Of a DNA stretch of 64,000 bases, positions 1 to 18,000 are shown piece by piece (position 1 is the first letter of the stretch; each line of letters opens with the position of its first letter). The stretch is from contig OX597823.1 in NCBI GenBank assembly GCA_951406725.2, forward strand, positions 98,084,001 through 98,148,000, read 5' to 3'. The DNA is from Octopus vulgaris. Lineage: Eukaryota. Position numbers: made by a program.

Positions 1-3000
1 TCTACTATTAGAGGATTTCAATAGCTGAATGGAGATGATAGTGTTGCTTTCTCATCTGAAGGGCTTGCAAGGTCCTATCTCATTATTGTGAAAGCAAAGT
101 GACTGTGAGGATTACATACTGGAGTACCAGCTCAAAGGTTTTTGAATTCAATATTCCACTGCAGGCATTTCATTGTATATTTGTGCTGTACAATTTAATT
201 CTACTGCCTCAGTTGACCTTCTGTCAAGAATAGGTACCAGTTCAAATGTAAATGTTGCCTGCAATAGATCAACAACCTATTCCAGTTGGTAGTTTGTCTC
301 TTTTGCTTAATGCCTTGGAGTTAAAGTTATGTACTAGCCATAATAATATTTATTGTAGGGGTGGGGCTTAGGAAACAGTTTGTTTTATGCCATCACTAGC
401 GCTGTCTGTGCTTGTGACCAGGCCCTAAAACTTTTCTGTCTCATTTACCTAGCAGTAGAGCAGGTAAACATAGGGGGCATGAATGACTTGATATTGGAGT
501 GCTAAACTAACCAGAAACCAAGTGTGCTAATGCTGTGATAGGTTCAGATATTCTCTCATGACAGAGAATATGTGTGAATGTCAACCAATCAATCTCCCCT
601 CTGCTTCCTCCCTCTTCCACAAAGAAGTAAGGCTCTGTGCCTACATAAAAATCATTACCAATATTCTGATGGATACTTCTGTAAAGCGATATGTTTATAG
701 CAAAAGAGTTACCAGAACCAAGGTTTCCATTCCTAGATGGAACTGACACATTCAATTCCTCGTTTGCTTTAAAATTCAAGGCTTTCATGCCTGCCTATGT
801 ATAATGAAATTTTATTTTTATTTTCTGTTCAGTAATTTATCTTACCTAACTCATCTCCTTTCCCTTTTTCTTTCTTCTGGATAGACTTTTCCTTTACTTT
901 TTTTTTTTTGCCAAATTTGATGTTCATTCGACATGAATCACAAATTTCAATTTCTCATTGGTTGAGCCAATACTGATTGGACATTGACAACAAAATTTGT
1001 TGTTGTTGCTGCTGCTGTTGTATCCATTGTCACATCCTATAATTAACTAACACCACTCTCTATTTGTTGTACTGGACCATATTCTATAATGTTCAGCCCA
1101 GCAAGAAGTCTTGGTTTGTATGTGTGTGTTTTTGTTTGTTTTTAACCAGTTCCATAAATTTGTGTGTATCTATGCATGTGTGTGTGTATATGAGTGTACA
1201 CATATACACATATGCATGTGTGCACAACACTGAGATTTATTGTCTGCCATCTCATAATGTAAGGCTTCGTGTTTTGCTTCGTGTACGCTCACATTGATAA
1301 AGCTGCATTGGATCCAAGCTACAGTATCAGCACACACCCTCTTGTATTTGCCAGCATCGATTAATTAGGGGATGGCTAAGACAAGTTGCAGGTGTATCAT
1401 CATCATCATCATTATTATTATTATTATTAAGGCAGTGAGCTAGCAGAATTGTTAGCACACTGGACAAAATGCTTAGCTGCATTTCATGTCTTAACGTTCT
1501 GAGTTCAAATTCAACCCTGGTCGCCTTTGCCTTTCATCCTGTTGGGGTTAATGAAATAAGTACCATTTGATCGCTGGGGTCTATATAACTGACTAGCCCC
1601 TCTCACAAAATTTCTGACCTTCTGCTTGTAGTAGAAAGGATATTATTATAGAGAAGGCTCAGACAGGAAGCTTTGCTTTTTGGGGGAAGGGCGGTGGGGT
1701 TCTTTATTGTTTCCTTTAACATCAATGCTTCAATGATTTCTGTTCAAATTCTATTGAAGTAGCTTTGTGTTGAAAAATATATATAAATACCAGTTATGTA
1801 CTGCTGTGGAATCAGTTGACTTCAGCTCCTCCTTAGAAGGTTGGCCTTATTACTAGTAAAACAAAAAAATAACAATCATTATTAGCGCTGTTTACATGTG
1901 AGATGGGGAGAAAAACTCCATTTGCTTTTGTCTTTCATGAAATGAAAGCTACTTTATATAATATTGTGTTTTTTTTTACTTTATTTTGTTTTTGTTTTTT
2001 GTTCTAATGTTTTTGGTGACCAATTCATTTATACTCCATCTACTGTCTGATGTGTGTGTTGTTCCATACACATACACAACACATAAACCATTTACATTGT
2101 CATATACTGTATAATGTATATTATCAACATATATTCTATAATATACAGTATATTGTATAATACAGTATGCAGCGTAGATCTTTGTGTTTTATATATATAT
2201 TTTATAGTGTGTAATATTATATAAACAGAGATTGTATAATATCTGTATTATGTGTACAATATGTTATACTCTGTGTGTGTGTGTGGGTGTGTGTGTGTAC
2301 TACAAAATGTTTTGCTGGTGTTGCTTCAGTCAGTTCTTTCTTTATACAGCAGCACACTGAAACAGATTCTTGTGAGCATAATTCCTTTCAGCCCATCATC
2401 TAATGAAGCCATTAGTTTGCAAACTTTTTACCATCAGTTCAGAAGATACCTGCTCTACAACATGGAGGTGTCCTCTCCAAATGATGCTAGCTGATAAATG
2501 AAAAGTATAAATTTTACACAGAACAGAAAAAGCAAAAACCAAAAAAAAAAAAAAAAAAAGAAAAGAAAGAAAGAAAGAAAAAAGAAAAAAATTATAATAA
2601 ATAAATTTTGAAAATGACAAAAAAAAAACGAAACCCAACAAAAAAAAAAGAAAAGAAAGACAAAAGAACAAGACTTTGCCTAGTTTGGTCAACTAGGTTG
2701 CAACTTAATGCAATTGCAATCCACTGCATCAATATTTTAGAGAGAATTTGTACAAAGTAAAGCATCAAACAACCTTCTGCTGGTGTTCTTACTCATCTGT
2801 TGCATGTTGTGAAATTCAATCCATGTTGGAAAATGTGAAATGTTTACACTTTAAGAATTCCAATTTTATTTTTTTTATTTTTTTTTTTTTGCATTCTAAC
2901 GCCATCAAATTATAGGAGCCTCTGTCTTACTGTATCTCTTTCCCTCCCTTAGTCTCTCTTTCTCCCTCTCTCCCTCCTTCACTATCTCTCTCCTTCCCTC

Positions 3001-15000: not shown

Positions 15001-18000
15001 TATATATATATATATGTATATATATATATATATATATATATATATATATATATATATATATAATATTTTTATATATATATATATATATATATAAATATAT
15101 ATATATATATATATATAATATATATATATATATATATATATATTTATATAATGTATATATATATATATATATATAATACAATAAAATTTATATACTAATT
15201 ATACAATATACTGTATATTATAGAATATGTTGATAATATACATTATAAAAATCAATATAAATACATATGTATAAACTAAAAAAATATGTATTTTTTATTT
15301 TTACAGTAAGATAGATATACATATATATATATATATAAATATATATATATAACAAAACCAAATATAAAGTAAAAATATATAAAATATTGAATAAAATATA
15401 TATATATATATATATATATATATATATATATAATAATATACATAACCATTACTCATATATATAAATATAATATTTTAGTTTTTCTAGTAATAGAGCCCCC
15501 TTCACTACAATGATATATATATAACACAAAGCTAATTCAATATTTGAGAAAAAAAATTTGATATAAAGTCAATATTTTCCCCAAAGCAACTTTGTCTGGA
15601 TTCTCTATAATACTTTCACACAAACGCATGGAAATATGGGTAGACAGATAGCTTATAGAAGATAAATATCTTATTATTAAGCTACAACAGGGAAAGGCAC
15701 AAGGATTACTCTCAAACAACTGGCAAACTGACACCAAGTTCTGCATCCTGATAATAATAATAATAATACATGATATATGATATACCGCATTAAAATCGAT
15801 GCGTAAAATACAAGATATGTGCTGGCTGCTGTGTTGGCCAAGCAACTATCATAGTGTTACACTGAAATATAAAATTTCTTAATACATTAAAAGCAGACAT
15901 ATAAATCTCAATGTTAAGCCACAGAAGCAATATGTGAATTTAATACACACACACACATGCATAGATACACAAAATTTATGAACTGAATTTAACGCAAACA
16001 ATAAACACGACTACAAGAACTAAAGATACCTAATTACTAACATTATAGAATATTAAAAATGAGAGTGAATATTGTTAATTAAGATTGAAAGAACAGCGAG
16101 GCATTGAAACAAAGAAATCTCAATCTATTAGCTCAACCTAGAAAAAATGTACTACATAGAATGACATCAAACAAAAAAGTAAAGAAAAGCTATAAAAGTA
16201 GGAAAGGGAGATGAAAGTTGGTAAGATAAATTACTGAAAAAGAATAAAATAGTTTCATTTTACAGCAGGCATAAAAGCCTTGAATTTTTAACACAAACGA
16301 AGAATTGAAGTCACAATCTGAGAATGGACTAACCTTGGTTCTGTGGCTCTTGATTATAAAACTTGCAATATATAAATTAATGTTTACCTTCTTTGTAACA
16401 GGAAAAATCACGACCTTCAAATAAATTCTCTTCAAAGAAATACTGAACCATGCATGCACAAATTGAATTTCTAGTCATTACATACAATACGCTCCACTAC
16501 TCTTAATGGTAGAAAATTTTAAACAGACTTGTAATGAATACTATTTATAGACACACAATAAATAAAGATTACAAAGCATTAAGCAAAATAAACAAGAATG
16601 TTGTTGACTCAGTTTATTTGAACTGGTACTATTCTTGATCATCAGAAGGAATCATCGGCGTCAATCATTAATTACCACCTCATAAATATATTTCCCTTCT
16701 TCTTCTTCTTCTTCTTCTACATATCCACTCTCACAATAATAGGTCCAACCCCATCACCATCAACATTCTCTCCTTCTTTTCCTCTTCTATCGATCTTCTT
16801 TTCTTCTTCTTCTTTATCTAAGAGGATAATAGTACACCTAGAATTTGAACACAGAACAGAAATTCCTTAAATCATCTACACCATAACTCAATCATTTATA
16901 TGTATTTCAATTAGAGCCTCTCAGTGTGTGTGGTCTGGGTATGAACATGATTAAACTGAAAGTCAGTTTCCACATATTCTTTTAAAAATATACTGCCATA
17001 CTGTGGACACCACAATTATGTGTCTTTCAATTTAGGACTTGTCCTAGGTTTGAAGAGCAAGTGCTATTTCTCACGTGATCTTGAAACGAAAAGAAATTAA
17101 AGACAGAATACCAGGGTGTGAGATTCGAGAAAGTTTGTTCATACATTGTGAGAATTTGACTGAACAGTGAGAACATGAATTATCAGAATATGGAGAGACA
17201 ATGAATGTTATACCACCGCCATATACTGTGCCAACAAAATAACATAAAATGAGCGCTAATTTAAGTGGAGGAATAATGTTGCAATTCATTTGACCCCAGG
17301 AATCATCACTGGTATTTTACAACTAGAAGGGAAGATGATTTTGAAGGATAGGTTATCAGAACTAAAGTCTTGCTGATACAAATATGACTTTTTTAAAAAA
17401 TCAAAATACAGTAATCATTTAATCTGTGTCACCATTGTGCTTATTTCACAATATAATAATGAATAATAATAATAATAATAAAATCATTAAAGAGATTCAC
17501 CAATTGGCTGATCAGATTTGTAGAGGGCATATAATAAATTGATTTTACTTAATAGCTGGTATTTTTTAGCTGAAAAAGAAAGTCTATCATTACAATTCAG
17601 AGGCAAATTTTAAAGTTAAATGATCAAATACATGGAATTTTTTTCTATATACAATTCTTTATTACCAACAATTTATATAAACAACTACAAAACACATGCT
17701 CTGGTTTTGTGTTAAGACAATGGAGGTTGACCTGAGTATTTGTGGTCTAAGAAGGGCAGATGAGTGTTAGAATCCTTGAGTAGCCGAAGAGAAAAGACCG
17801 AGGCTACTGTTCAACTAAAGTCAAATCAAAAAATAAAAANNNNNNNNNNNNNNNNNNNNNNNNNNNNNNNNNNNNNNNNNNNNNNNNNNNNNNNNNNNNN
17901 NNNNNNNNNNNNNNNNNNNNNNNNNNNNNNNNNNNNNNNGTTGGTTCAAGTTGATTACATCAACCCTAGTACTCAACCAGTACTTATTTTATCAACCCTG

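What the first reader, a model, noticed from the sequence alone, without database searches (positions are those of the whole stretch)
225..17839. Giant fold-back whose second arm decays with distance from the hinge: probable long-read chimera assembled at a contig end
Seen: the sequence after 9372 mirrors the sequence before 9211, with an unpaired spacer of about 160 bp. Near the hinge the mirror is close (about 1477 bp vs about 1431 bp). Far from it the mirror is heavily deleted (225-2160, about 1.9 kb, maps to 15195-16639, about 1.45 kb) and TA-enriched, and it stops at the N gap. Inference: a polarised, deletion-biased error gradient fits a template-plus-complement (fold-back) nanopore-type read, not biological ageing, which would degrade both arms evenly. 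About 8.5 kb of this window may not exist in the genome.
Basis: partly seen in the sequence, partly recalled or inferred. Interest (0 to 1): 0.7.

Follow-up and report, generated by a model that had tools for sequence, protein, structure and literature searches.

The report
Fold-back read artefact at contig end
About 8.5 kb of this animal genome assembly is most likely not real DNA but the badly read second half of one hairpin-shaped sequencing molecule stuck onto the end of a contig, so it should be trimmed, not studied.

Summary
The mirror is real. Bases 9372 to about 16800 are the reverse complement of 9211 down to 1, around a 160-base loop (9212-9371). The contig then runs about 1 kb further to a 100-N gap at 17840.

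All the damage is on the right arm.
- The left arm keeps a 524-codon open frame of a non-LTR retrotransposon endonuclease. The right arm breaks it into pieces.
- Near the hinge the arms differ by 35 indels and only 13 substitutions. 64 bases are missing on the right and 17 on the left.
- Further out, the right arm keeps 16% of the left arm's G/C bases but 77% of its A/T bases.
- Other copies of the same repeats side with the left arm at 63, 80 and 64 columns, against 8, 11 and 1 for the right.

This is a sequencing-error profile, not evolutionary decay. It matches published nanopore behaviour on inverted duplicates and the published definition of fold-back artefact reads.

The retrotransposon is cut at the hinge and its reverse-transcriptase part is nowhere in the window.

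Verdict: artefact, confidence 0.85. The same error pattern would arise if a real palindrome were read by nanopore (about 0.1). Only read mapping can exclude that. Low interest, except for assembly clean-up.

The parts
1..9211 (+). Left arm: faithful, consensus-quality genomic sequence. It continues upstream of the window.
   Evidence: A 524-codon open frame lies at its inner end. It matches relative P0002 at 80% identity in a single frame. Its interspersed repeats match other copies in the window at 73-94%.
9212..9371 (+). Unpaired loop (hinge) of 160 bases: genuine retrotransposon endonuclease coding sequence, not an adapter.
   Evidence: The open frame and the Pfam Exo_endo_phos_2 match run through it (residues 370-490 of P0001). 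The P0002 alignment runs to 9376. Read by eye, the two halves of the loop are not complementary to each other.
9372..11840 (-). Right arm, near zone: reverse complement of left 9211 to about 6650 at 89-96% identity, with indel-dominated, deletion-biased differences.
   Evidence: In 1552 columns there are 13 mismatches, 26 events (64 bases) missing on the right and 9 events (17 bases) missing on the left. The reading frame is shattered into pieces of at most 163 aa.
11841..15444 (-). Right arm, collapsed zone: 3.6 kb called almost entirely as TA repeat. It stands for the left (TA)n tract (5475-6669, 1.2 kb) plus about 3.3 kb of ordinary left-arm sequence (about 5474-2160).
   Evidence: TRF. GC is 0.03-0.15 against 0.21-0.36. 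In 12801-15444, 191 of 1165 left G/C bases are kept against 1866 of 2420 A/T bases. Colinear anchors are 13293/4554, 13475/4261 and 13811/3771.
15445..16800 (-). Right arm, far zone: skeletonised mirror of left about 1950 to 1, at 48-69% identity with heavy deletion.
   Evidence: z = 8.7 and 12.1 against 40 random segments.
16801..17839 (.). Last 1 kb or so of the contig. It has no partner inside the window and presumably mirrors DNA upstream of the window start.
   Evidence: The alignment runs off the left end of the window at about right 16800. No match to the rest of the window. That it belongs to the mirror is an inference.
17840..17939 (.). Scaffold gap of 100 N marking the contig end. 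Left as it is.
7835..9409 (+). Open frame of 524 codons: N-terminal part of a non-LTR retrotransposon ORF2 (AP-type endonuclease), cut off at the hinge. The reverse-transcriptase part is absent from the window.
   Evidence: Pfam Exo_endo_phos_2 at 6.4e-12 and Exo_endo_phos at 1.3e-7. 133 relatives of about 1000 aa carry endonuclease plus RVT_1. P0002 residues 1-292 match and residues 293-1033 match nowhere in the window. P0002 RVT_1 lies at residues 559-790.
6772..7673 (+). Tandem repeats of 48 and 87-89 bases upstream of the retrotransposon frames, mirrored at 10924-11517.
   Evidence: TRF. blastn.

Best explanation
Bases 9372-17839 are the second half of one fold-back long read that the assembler used to extend a contig.

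Proposed sequence of events:
1. A DNA fragment ended inside a retrotransposon copy.
2. Its 3' end snapped back on itself 160 bases upstream and was filled in, most likely during library preparation. This gave a hairpin molecule.
3. A nanopore-type sequencer read the first strand, then the 160-base loop, then the complementary strand.
4. The second strand was read badly, with missed bases, loss of G/C and a lock into TA calls after a long (TA)n tract. Re-pairing with the strand already through the pore disturbs translocation.
5. The true continuation (the reverse-transcriptase part of a repeated element) could not be assembled. The degraded second arm overlapped nothing else, so it survived as an unpolished overhang up to the scaffold gap.

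What is shown: the mirror, the loop, the damage being on one arm only and having an error-like profile, the truncation of the element at the hinge, and the position at a contig end.

What is inferred: the platform, single-read support, and the library-preparation origin.
For: 1. The mirror holds over the whole arm.
2. The damage is on one arm only.
   - The left arm has a 524-codon open frame, against pieces of at most 163 aa on the right.
   - P0002 matches the left arm at 80.4% identity with 4 gap columns, against 51% and 22 gap columns on the right.
   - Three outgroup repeat copies side with the left arm at 63, 80 and 64 columns, and with the right at 8, 11 and 1.
   - At E <= 1e-6 all 10 blastn matches to the rest of the window lie in three left-arm regions. 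The right arm has none.
3. The profile is that of sequencing error.
   - Near the hinge there are 35 indel events against 13 substitutions (7 transitions, 6 transversions). 64 bases are missing on the right and 17 on the left. 31 of 35 events are not multiples of three, and 12 of 35 are homopolymer-length changes.
   - In 12801-15444, 16% of G/C bases are kept against 77% of A/T. There are 325 strong-to-weak and 25 weak-to-strong substitutions, and 320 transversions against 204 transitions.
4. The right arm is shorter: about 7.4 kb stands for 9.2 kb. Spealman et al. 2020 report this for the second arm of inverted duplicates in nanopore reads (PMC7229812, main text read).
5. The 160-base offset meets the criterion of Heinz, Meyerson and Li 2026: opposite strand, within 200 bp. 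They find 0.55-0.6% of ONT genomic reads are such artefacts and virtually none in PacBio HiFi (PMC12870357, parts 1-3 of 5 read).
6. The element is cut at the hinge. The reverse-transcriptase part is absent from the whole window, including after the gap.
7. The arm ends in the only N gap. The left arm and the rest of the window are of polished quality, with intact Rpb1 exons.
Against: - No reads, depth or k-mer data could be examined, so single-read support is inferred, not seen.
- Spealman et al. show that the same second-arm failure occurs on real inverted duplications. The error signature therefore does not exclude a real palindrome.
- In that paper the failure starts at the junction. Here the first 2 kb or so after the hinge are at 93-96% identity and the collapse starts later.
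- The block 12801-13660 is only weakly above random controls (z = 2.1). The block 13661-15190 cannot be oriented.
- The last 1 kb before the gap has no visible partner.
Confidence: 0.85

Rival explanations
1. A real palindrome exists in the genome, or in some cells. It would be a fold-back inversion with a 160-base spacer and arms of at least 9.2 kb, broken inside a retrotransposon copy. Nanopore reads cannot read its second arm, so the assembler collapsed the arms and left a mis-called overhang. The structure would be real, but the right-arm letters would still be wrong.
For: Spealman et al. 2020 (PMC7229812) show this kind of failure on validated real inverted duplications: low quality and missed bases in the second arm, which comes out shorter than the first. 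With arms longer than most reads, reads entering from either side would give a good first arm and a bad second arm. The pattern found here could then arise without any artefact in the molecule.
Against: - Long near-perfect palindromes with short spacers are rare in animal genomes (general knowledge, not tested here). Fold-back artefact reads make up about 0.55-0.6% of ONT genomic reads (PMC12870357).
- The near zone shows random-looking raw-read error, 35 indels in 1.5 kb, where a consensus of many reads would have removed non-systematic errors.
- The retrotransposon's reverse-transcriptase part is missing. A real event would need a chromosome break inside the element.
Confidence: 0.1
2. An old biological inverted duplication whose two arms have diverged by ordinary mutation.
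For: The arms are colinear over about 9 kb, and identity falls with distance from the hinge. Read naively, that could suggest age.
Against: - Divergence is one-sided by outgroup test: 63, 80 and 64 columns against 8, 11 and 1.
- Indels outnumber substitutions 35 to 13.
- Transversions equal or exceed transitions: 6 against 7 near the hinge, 320 against 204 in the middle.
- Loss is specific to G/C: 16% kept against 77% of A/T.
- About 1 kb of ordinary sequence is replaced by nearly pure TA.
- Identity changes stepwise along one arm, which simultaneous duplication cannot give.
Confidence: 0.015
3. The assembler misjoined the locus, in inverted orientation, to a real paralogous copy or to the other haplotype.
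For: Contig ends in repeats are prone to misjoins. The junction lies inside a repeated retrotransposon.
Against: - A paralogue or an allele would be a readable sequence with symmetric, substitution-dominated divergence. The right arm is a G/C-depleted skeleton with a shattered frame.
- The mirror starts only 160 bases from the end of the first arm and is colinear for the whole arm, including unique flanking DNA. That is the geometry of one folded molecule.
Confidence: 0.02

Closest known systems
Fold-back (duplicated-inversion) artefact reads in long-read data, as defined by Heinz, Meyerson and Li 2026 (Breakinator; PMC12870357)
   Same: [quoted passage not shown] There is no adapter between the segments. 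The paper calls such artefacts typical of ONT genomic libraries and says they can tangle assembly graphs.
   Different: Here it is seen in an assembled contig, not in a read. The symmetry criterion (breakpoint in the middle of the read) and the lack of support from other reads could not be tested.
Nanopore sequencing failure at inverted duplicated DNA (Spealman, Burrell and Gresham 2020; PMC7229812)
   Same: The first arm is of normal quality. The second arm has miscalled and missed bases and comes out shorter than the first.
   Different: In the paper the failure starts at the junction. Here the first 2 kb or so after the hinge are at ordinary raw-read accuracy, and the collapse begins in a (TA)n tract, with strong TA over-calling. 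Current uplift and phred scores cannot be seen in an assembly.
Artificial palindromic reads after whole-genome amplification (Warris et al., Pacasus; bioRxiv 10.1101/173872, abstract and outline only)
   Same: Chimeric palindromic long reads that damage de novo assembly.
   Different: Nothing here shows that the DNA was amplified. That artefact does not predict a one-sided error gradient on its own.
Biological fold-back inversions, including those induced by LINE-1 (bioRxiv 10.1101/2024.12.14.628481, passages only)
   Same: An inverted duplication with a short spacer. A non-LTR retrotransposon lies at the junction.
   Different: The L1-mediated fold-back junctions described there contain polyadenylated TPRT insertions. 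Here the junction is mid-ORF endonuclease coding sequence with no poly(A), and the element's 3' part is missing. The arm damage is one-sided and error-like.

Membership tests
Long-read fold-back artefact (Heinz et al. 2026 definition) | The second segment lies on the opposite strand and starts within 200 bp of the end of the first segment. | tested here: met
   The first arm ends at 9371. The second arm starts pairing with 9211, an offset of 160 bp.
Long-read fold-back artefact (Heinz et al. 2026 definition) | [quoted passage not shown] | not testable with these tools
   No reads are available. The left partner runs off the window start and the right arm runs to the contig end.
Long-read fold-back artefact (Heinz et al. 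2026 definition) | The junction is not supported by the other reads covering the site. | not testable with these tools
   No read data. The only indirect evidence is that the right arm has raw-read quality, while the left arm and the rest of the window are polished.
Nanopore failure on inverted duplicates (Spealman et al. 2020) | Errors and missed bases are confined to the arm read second, which comes out shorter than the first. | tested here: met
   The outgroup tests are one-sided. About 7.4 kb stands for 9.2 kb. Near the hinge, 64 bases are missing on the right against 17 on the left.
Nanopore failure on inverted duplicates (Spealman et al. 2020) | The drop in quality begins at the junction. 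| tested here: not met
   Identity is 93-96% for 9372-11371 and the collapse starts from about 11800. The mechanism may still apply, but the onset differs.
Nanopore failure on inverted duplicates (Spealman et al. 2020) | Uplift of the raw current, a lower sampling rate and low phred scores. | not testable with these tools
   There is no signal or quality data in an assembly.
Biological palindrome or aged inverted duplication | Both arms are about equally diverged from outgroup copies. | tested here: not met
   Left equals outgroup at 63, 80 and 64 columns. Right equals outgroup at 8, 11 and 1. P0002 matches at 80% against 51%.
Biological palindrome or aged inverted duplication | Divergence is dominated by substitutions, with transitions in excess. 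| tested here: not met
   35 indel events against 13 substitutions, 7 transitions and 6 transversions. In the middle zone, 204 transitions against 320 transversions.
L1/TPRT-mediated fold-back junction | A polyadenylated retrotransposon insertion (3' end) lies at the junction. | tested here: not met
   The loop is endonuclease coding sequence with no poly(A). The reverse-transcriptase and 3' part are absent. The definition comes from passages of 10.1101/2024.12.14.628481.
Twin-priming inversion of a non-LTR element | The inversion is confined to the element's own sequence. This definition is recalled, not taken from a call. | tested here: not met
   Outside the retrotransposon reading frames, which begin at 7705, the mirror covers about 7.7 kb: a microsatellite, tandem repeats and other interspersed repeats.
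PacBio palindromic read with a missed SMRTbell adapter | An adapter or no genomic loop at the hinge, and insertion-biased uniform errors. These features are recalled, not taken from a call. | tested here: not met
   The loop is 160 bases of retrotransposon coding sequence. Errors are deletion-biased, 64 against 17, and not uniform. Adapter sequences themselves were not searched for.
Non-LTR retrotransposon (the element at the hinge) | An AP-type endonuclease domain followed by a reverse transcriptase in one ORF. | tested here: inconclusive
   The endonuclease is present, and relatives of about 1000 aa carry endonuclease plus RVT_1. In this copy the reverse-transcriptase part is cut away by the hinge.

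The most novel reading that the evidence does not exclude
The fold-back is a real structure in this animal's genome or in part of its cells. It would be a palindrome with arms of at least 9.2 kb and a 160-base spacer, created by a break inside a non-LTR retrotransposon followed by fold-back repair. It would be visible only as a mis-called overhang, because nanopores cannot read the second arm of such a structure.
Probability: 0.1. Interest if true: 0.4.

Novelty: not a real feature. Interest (0 to 1): 0.1.

Why it matters
This matters for assembly hygiene, not for biology.
- About 8.5 kb (9372-17839) should be trimmed or flagged. Otherwise it will produce a false giant inverted repeat, a false 3.6-kb TA microsatellite, false frameshifted retrotransposon fragments and a false structural variant.
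- The true continuation of the locus, the rest of the retrotransposon, is missing from the scaffold at this point.
- A one-sided, G/C-losing mirror that ends at a gap is a simple signature. It can be screened for in other long-read assemblies without access to reads.

Tried and rejected
- Aged biological palindrome: rejected by the outgroup tests and by the indel and substitution spectrum.
- Twin priming or L1-mediated fold-back: rejected. The loop has no poly(A), the 3' part of the element is missing, and the mirror covers long non-element flanks.
- PacBio missed adapter: rejected on the loop content and the deletion bias.
- Reverse-transcriptase part of the element just after the N gap: this would have shown the true continuation. 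tblastn with P0002-P0005 found no match beyond residue 292 anywhere in the window.
- Rfam at gathering thresholds and ARAGORN on the whole window: 0 hits each.
- Other long inverted repeats in 17940-64000: only interspersed repeats, with no alignment longer than 594 columns and no second fold-back.
- Two literature searches gave little. 'fold-back, chimeric reads, nanopore, assembly' found 3 papers, none on this artefact in assemblies. 'inverted duplication, contig end, long-read assembly, artifact' found no paper holding all four terms among those listed.
- Not tried:
  - The genome-contig scan, because that collection holds bacteria and archaea only.
  - The phage, plasmid and E. coli collections, as irrelevant.
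  - Metagenome contigs and viral contigs, which were closed.
  No independent copy of this locus was therefore compared.
- Supplements of the two main papers were not opened.
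Full report
**What is in the sequence**

The window has a single N run, 17840-17939, of 100 N. The bases to its left therefore form the end of a contig. blastn of 1-9300 against 9301-20000 gives one dominant minus-strand alignment: left 5574-9208 with right 12926-9375, 91% identity over 3693 columns, with 132 mismatches and 199 gap columns. The two arms are separated by 160 unpaired bases, 9212-9371.

A global alignment of the reverse-complemented left arm with the right arm is colinear throughout. 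Unique 11-mers containing at least three G/C bases give an ordered chain of right/left anchors: 13293/4554, 13475/4261, 13811/3771, 15203/2156, 15523/1771, 15949/1185, 16274/785, 16331/725, 16576/313 and 16616/247. Five scattered off-chain matches were also seen, as expected by chance. The sum of the paired coordinates falls from 18583 at the hinge to 16863. The right arm has therefore lost about 1.7 kb net.

The print-out shows the mirror continuing to the first bases of the window, which pair with about 16800. The last 1 kb or so before the gap has no partner in the window and presumably mirrors DNA upstream of it.

The true partner was scored against 40 random window segments of equal length:

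| Right-arm block | z-score | Comment |
|---|---|---|
| 15191-15890 | 8.7 | clear |
| 15891-16800 | 12.1 | clear |
| 12801-13660 | 2.1 | weak, but above all 40 controls |
| 13661-15190 | 8.7 | same-strand control equally high (816 against 850), because TA repeats are their own complement; says nothing about orientation |

**What the arms contain**

- The inner 1.5 kb of the left arm carries a 524-codon open frame, 7835-9409. It has Pfam Exo_endo_phos_2 (6.4e-12) and Exo_endo_phos (1.3e-7) domains.
- A search of the large protein collection for longer relatives gave 133 hits at E <= 0.001 among 5522 candidates. The 120 listed are 918-1625 aa long, and all but one carry the reverse-transcriptase family PF00078 beside the endonuclease family. 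The element is a non-LTR retrotransposon.
- The best relative, P0002 (1033 aa, from an unnamed record), has its endonuclease at residues 148-268 and its reverse transcriptase at 559-790. Its residues 1-292 match left 8489-9376, and residues 293-1033 match nowhere in the 64 kb.
- The element is thus cut just after the endonuclease, exactly where the sequence turns back. The 160-base loop is ordinary coding sequence of the element, not an adapter.
- Upstream lie tandem repeats of 48 and 87-89 bases (6772-7673), a 1.2-kb (TA)n tract (5475-6669), and other microsatellites and interspersed repeats.

**The damage is on one arm only**

1. The frame that is open for 524 codons on the left is broken on the right into pieces of at most 163 aa in several frames.
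2. P0002 aligns to the left arm at 80.4% identity with 4 gap columns in one frame. It aligns to the right arm at 51% with 22 gap columns, over residues 1-226 only.
3. At E <= 1e-6 all 10 blastn matches to the rest of the window fall in three left-arm regions, 1496-1626, 4666-4698 and 5351-5475. The right arm has no such match.
4. Three-way alignments with three outgroup copies give:

| Outgroup copy | Left = outgroup, right differs | Right = outgroup, left differs |
|---|---|---|
| 62752-62883 | 63 | 8 |
| 37269-37389 | 80 | 11 |
| 39151-39236 | 64 | 1 |

All counts are alignment columns. Two copies made at the same moment and ageing in a genome would share the change roughly equally. Here nearly all of it lies on the right arm.

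**The damage looks like sequencing error**

In the non-repetitive block next to the hinge (left 7677-9211), 1552 columns hold:
- 1458 matches
- 13 substitutions, 7 transitions and 6 transversions
- 35 indel events

Of the 35 indel events:
- 26 events (64 bases) are missing on the right and 9 events (17 bases) are missing on the left.
- 31 are not multiples of three.
- 12 are changes in homopolymer length.

Further out the loss becomes base-specific. In 12801-15444 only 191 of 1165 left-arm G/C bases are kept (16%), against 1866 of 2420 A/T bases (77%). Strong-to-weak substitutions number 325 and weak-to-strong 25. Transversions (320) exceed transitions (204). One caveat applies: in this zone the alignment itself favours A/T matches, so these figures partly restate the difference in composition. 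The anchors and readable islands in the print-out show that the order is still kept.

TRF calls 11841-15444 (3.6 kb) a TA repeat, where the left arm has 1.2 kb of TA followed by ordinary sequence. Right-arm GC is 0.03-0.06 at 13872-15371, opposite left-arm sequence of GC 0.21-0.33.

**The shape of the decay**

Identity per 500 bases of the right arm, outward from the hinge, is 0.93, 0.96, 0.93, 0.94, 0.89, 0.84, 0.63, 0.50, 0.58, 0.76, 0.50, 0.61, 0.58, 0.69 and 0.48. This is a step, not a slope. The first 2 kb or so are at ordinary raw-read accuracy. The collapse starts inside the mirrored TA tract, and there is a partial recovery far out. I have no tested explanation for the delayed onset. 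Two untestable ideas are recorded in the notebook: a basecaller held in a TA state after a long dinucleotide run, or partial polishing of the near part.

**Comparison with what is known**

Spealman, Burrell and Gresham 2020 (PMC7229812, main text read) report on nanopore reads that cross an inverted duplication.
- The first arm reads normally.
- The second arm has low quality, with wrong and missed bases.
- The second arm comes out shorter than the first.

They propose that re-pairing on the far side of the pore pulls the strand through faster. The one-sidedness and the shortening match that description; the onset at the junction does not.

Heinz, Meyerson and Li 2026 (PMC12870357, parts 1-3 of 5 read) define fold-back artefact reads.
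- The second segment is on the opposite strand, within 200 bp of the end of the first.
- They find 0.55-0.6% of ONT genomic reads are of this kind, and virtually none in PacBio HiFi.
- They argue that the artefacts arise in library preparation.
- They warn that the artefacts can tangle assembly graphs.

The 160-base offset meets their distance criterion. Their symmetry criterion needs the read itself.

Warris et al. (bioRxiv 10.1101/173872, abstract and outline only) describe artificial palindromes after whole-genome amplification.

**Why artefact rather than a real palindrome**

Spealman et al. worked on real inverted duplications. The error signature therefore proves that the right-arm letters are wrong, not that the fold-back is absent from the genome. 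Four points favour an artefact:
- Fold-back reads are known to be frequent, and a long palindrome with a short spacer should be rare (the second point is general knowledge).
- The near zone has the look of a single raw read, while the left arm and the rest of the window are polished. The rest of the window holds intact Rpb1 exons, scanned one open frame at a time without joining them.
- The contig ends inside a repeated element, where assemblers usually stop. A degraded overhang there would overlap nothing else and so survive.
- Biological routes tied to retrotransposons do not fit. The L1-mediated fold-back junctions described in bioRxiv 10.1101/2024.12.14.628481 contain polyadenylated insertions (passages only). 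This loop is mid-ORF coding sequence, and the element's 3' part is missing. Twin priming (recalled) inverts element sequence only. Here, outside the retrotransposon reading frames, which begin at 7705, the mirror covers about 7.7 kb.

I put the artefact at 0.85, a real palindrome mis-read by nanopore at about 0.1, and an aged duplication or a misjoin to a paralogue or haplotype together at about 0.035.

**What stayed unchecked**

- No reads, depths, qualities or signals were available.
- No collection holding eukaryotic DNA was open, so the locus was not compared with another assembly.
- The organism was not identified beyond a eukaryotic nuclear genome: Rpb1 exons, retrotransposon relatives mostly from unnamed records, and one named hit from a ctenophore at 37% identity. 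That it is an animal is my reading.
- Sequencing adapters were not searched for.
- Supplements of the papers were not opened.

**Verdict**

Bases 9372-17839 should be treated as non-genomic, or at the very least as mis-called, and trimmed. The biological interest is low.

Noticed in passing
window 48064-60387 (+): Exons of the largest subunit of RNA polymerase II. Five separate open frames match Pfam RNA_pol_Rpb1 domains 1 to 5 in order (E from 1e-30 to 6e-10). This marks the window as eukaryotic nuclear DNA (that it is an animal is my reading), with good base quality outside the right arm.
   Followed up: partly
window 5351-5472; copies near 27192, 31321, 37270, 39094, 47435, 50416 and 55840: An interspersed repeat family of roughly 180-300 bases. 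It contains a G/C-rich unit of 62 bases that is doubled in the left arm. At least seven further copies lie on both strands, at 72-95% identity. The family was not identified.
   Followed up: partly
window 6772-7673 and 7705-8034 (+): Arrays of 48- and 87-89-base tandem units lie directly upstream of the retrotransposon frames. They may be promoter monomers of its 5' UTR (a guess). A 109-codon open frame ahead of the endonuclease frame has no Pfam match.
   Followed up: no
window about 4320-4570 (left arm): A short element with terminal inverted repeats of about 25-30 bases, enclosing a second nested inverted repeat. It looks like a small fold-back element or MITE and was seen only in the alignment print-out. 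Both of its ends are recognisable, in order, in the degraded right arm at about 13293 and 13420.
   Followed up: no
window 1496-1626, 18092-18235 and 62752-62902: A SINE-like repeat shared between the left arm and two places in the rest of the window, at 73-75% identity. ARAGORN and Rfam found no tRNA or other RNA family in the window.
   Followed up: partly
window 19327-19734 (-), 40472-40858 (-) and 30329-30841 (+): Open frames of 128-170 codons. To my eye the first two resemble C-terminal parts of non-LTR reverse transcriptases and the third a SANT-type exon. None reached Pfam at E <= 0.001, so these readings are recollection only.
   Followed up: partly
window 3238-3940: A 0.7-kb compound TA/TG microsatellite in the left arm with periods of 25-58 bases. 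It adds to the TA-rich signal that the right arm over-calls.
   Followed up: no
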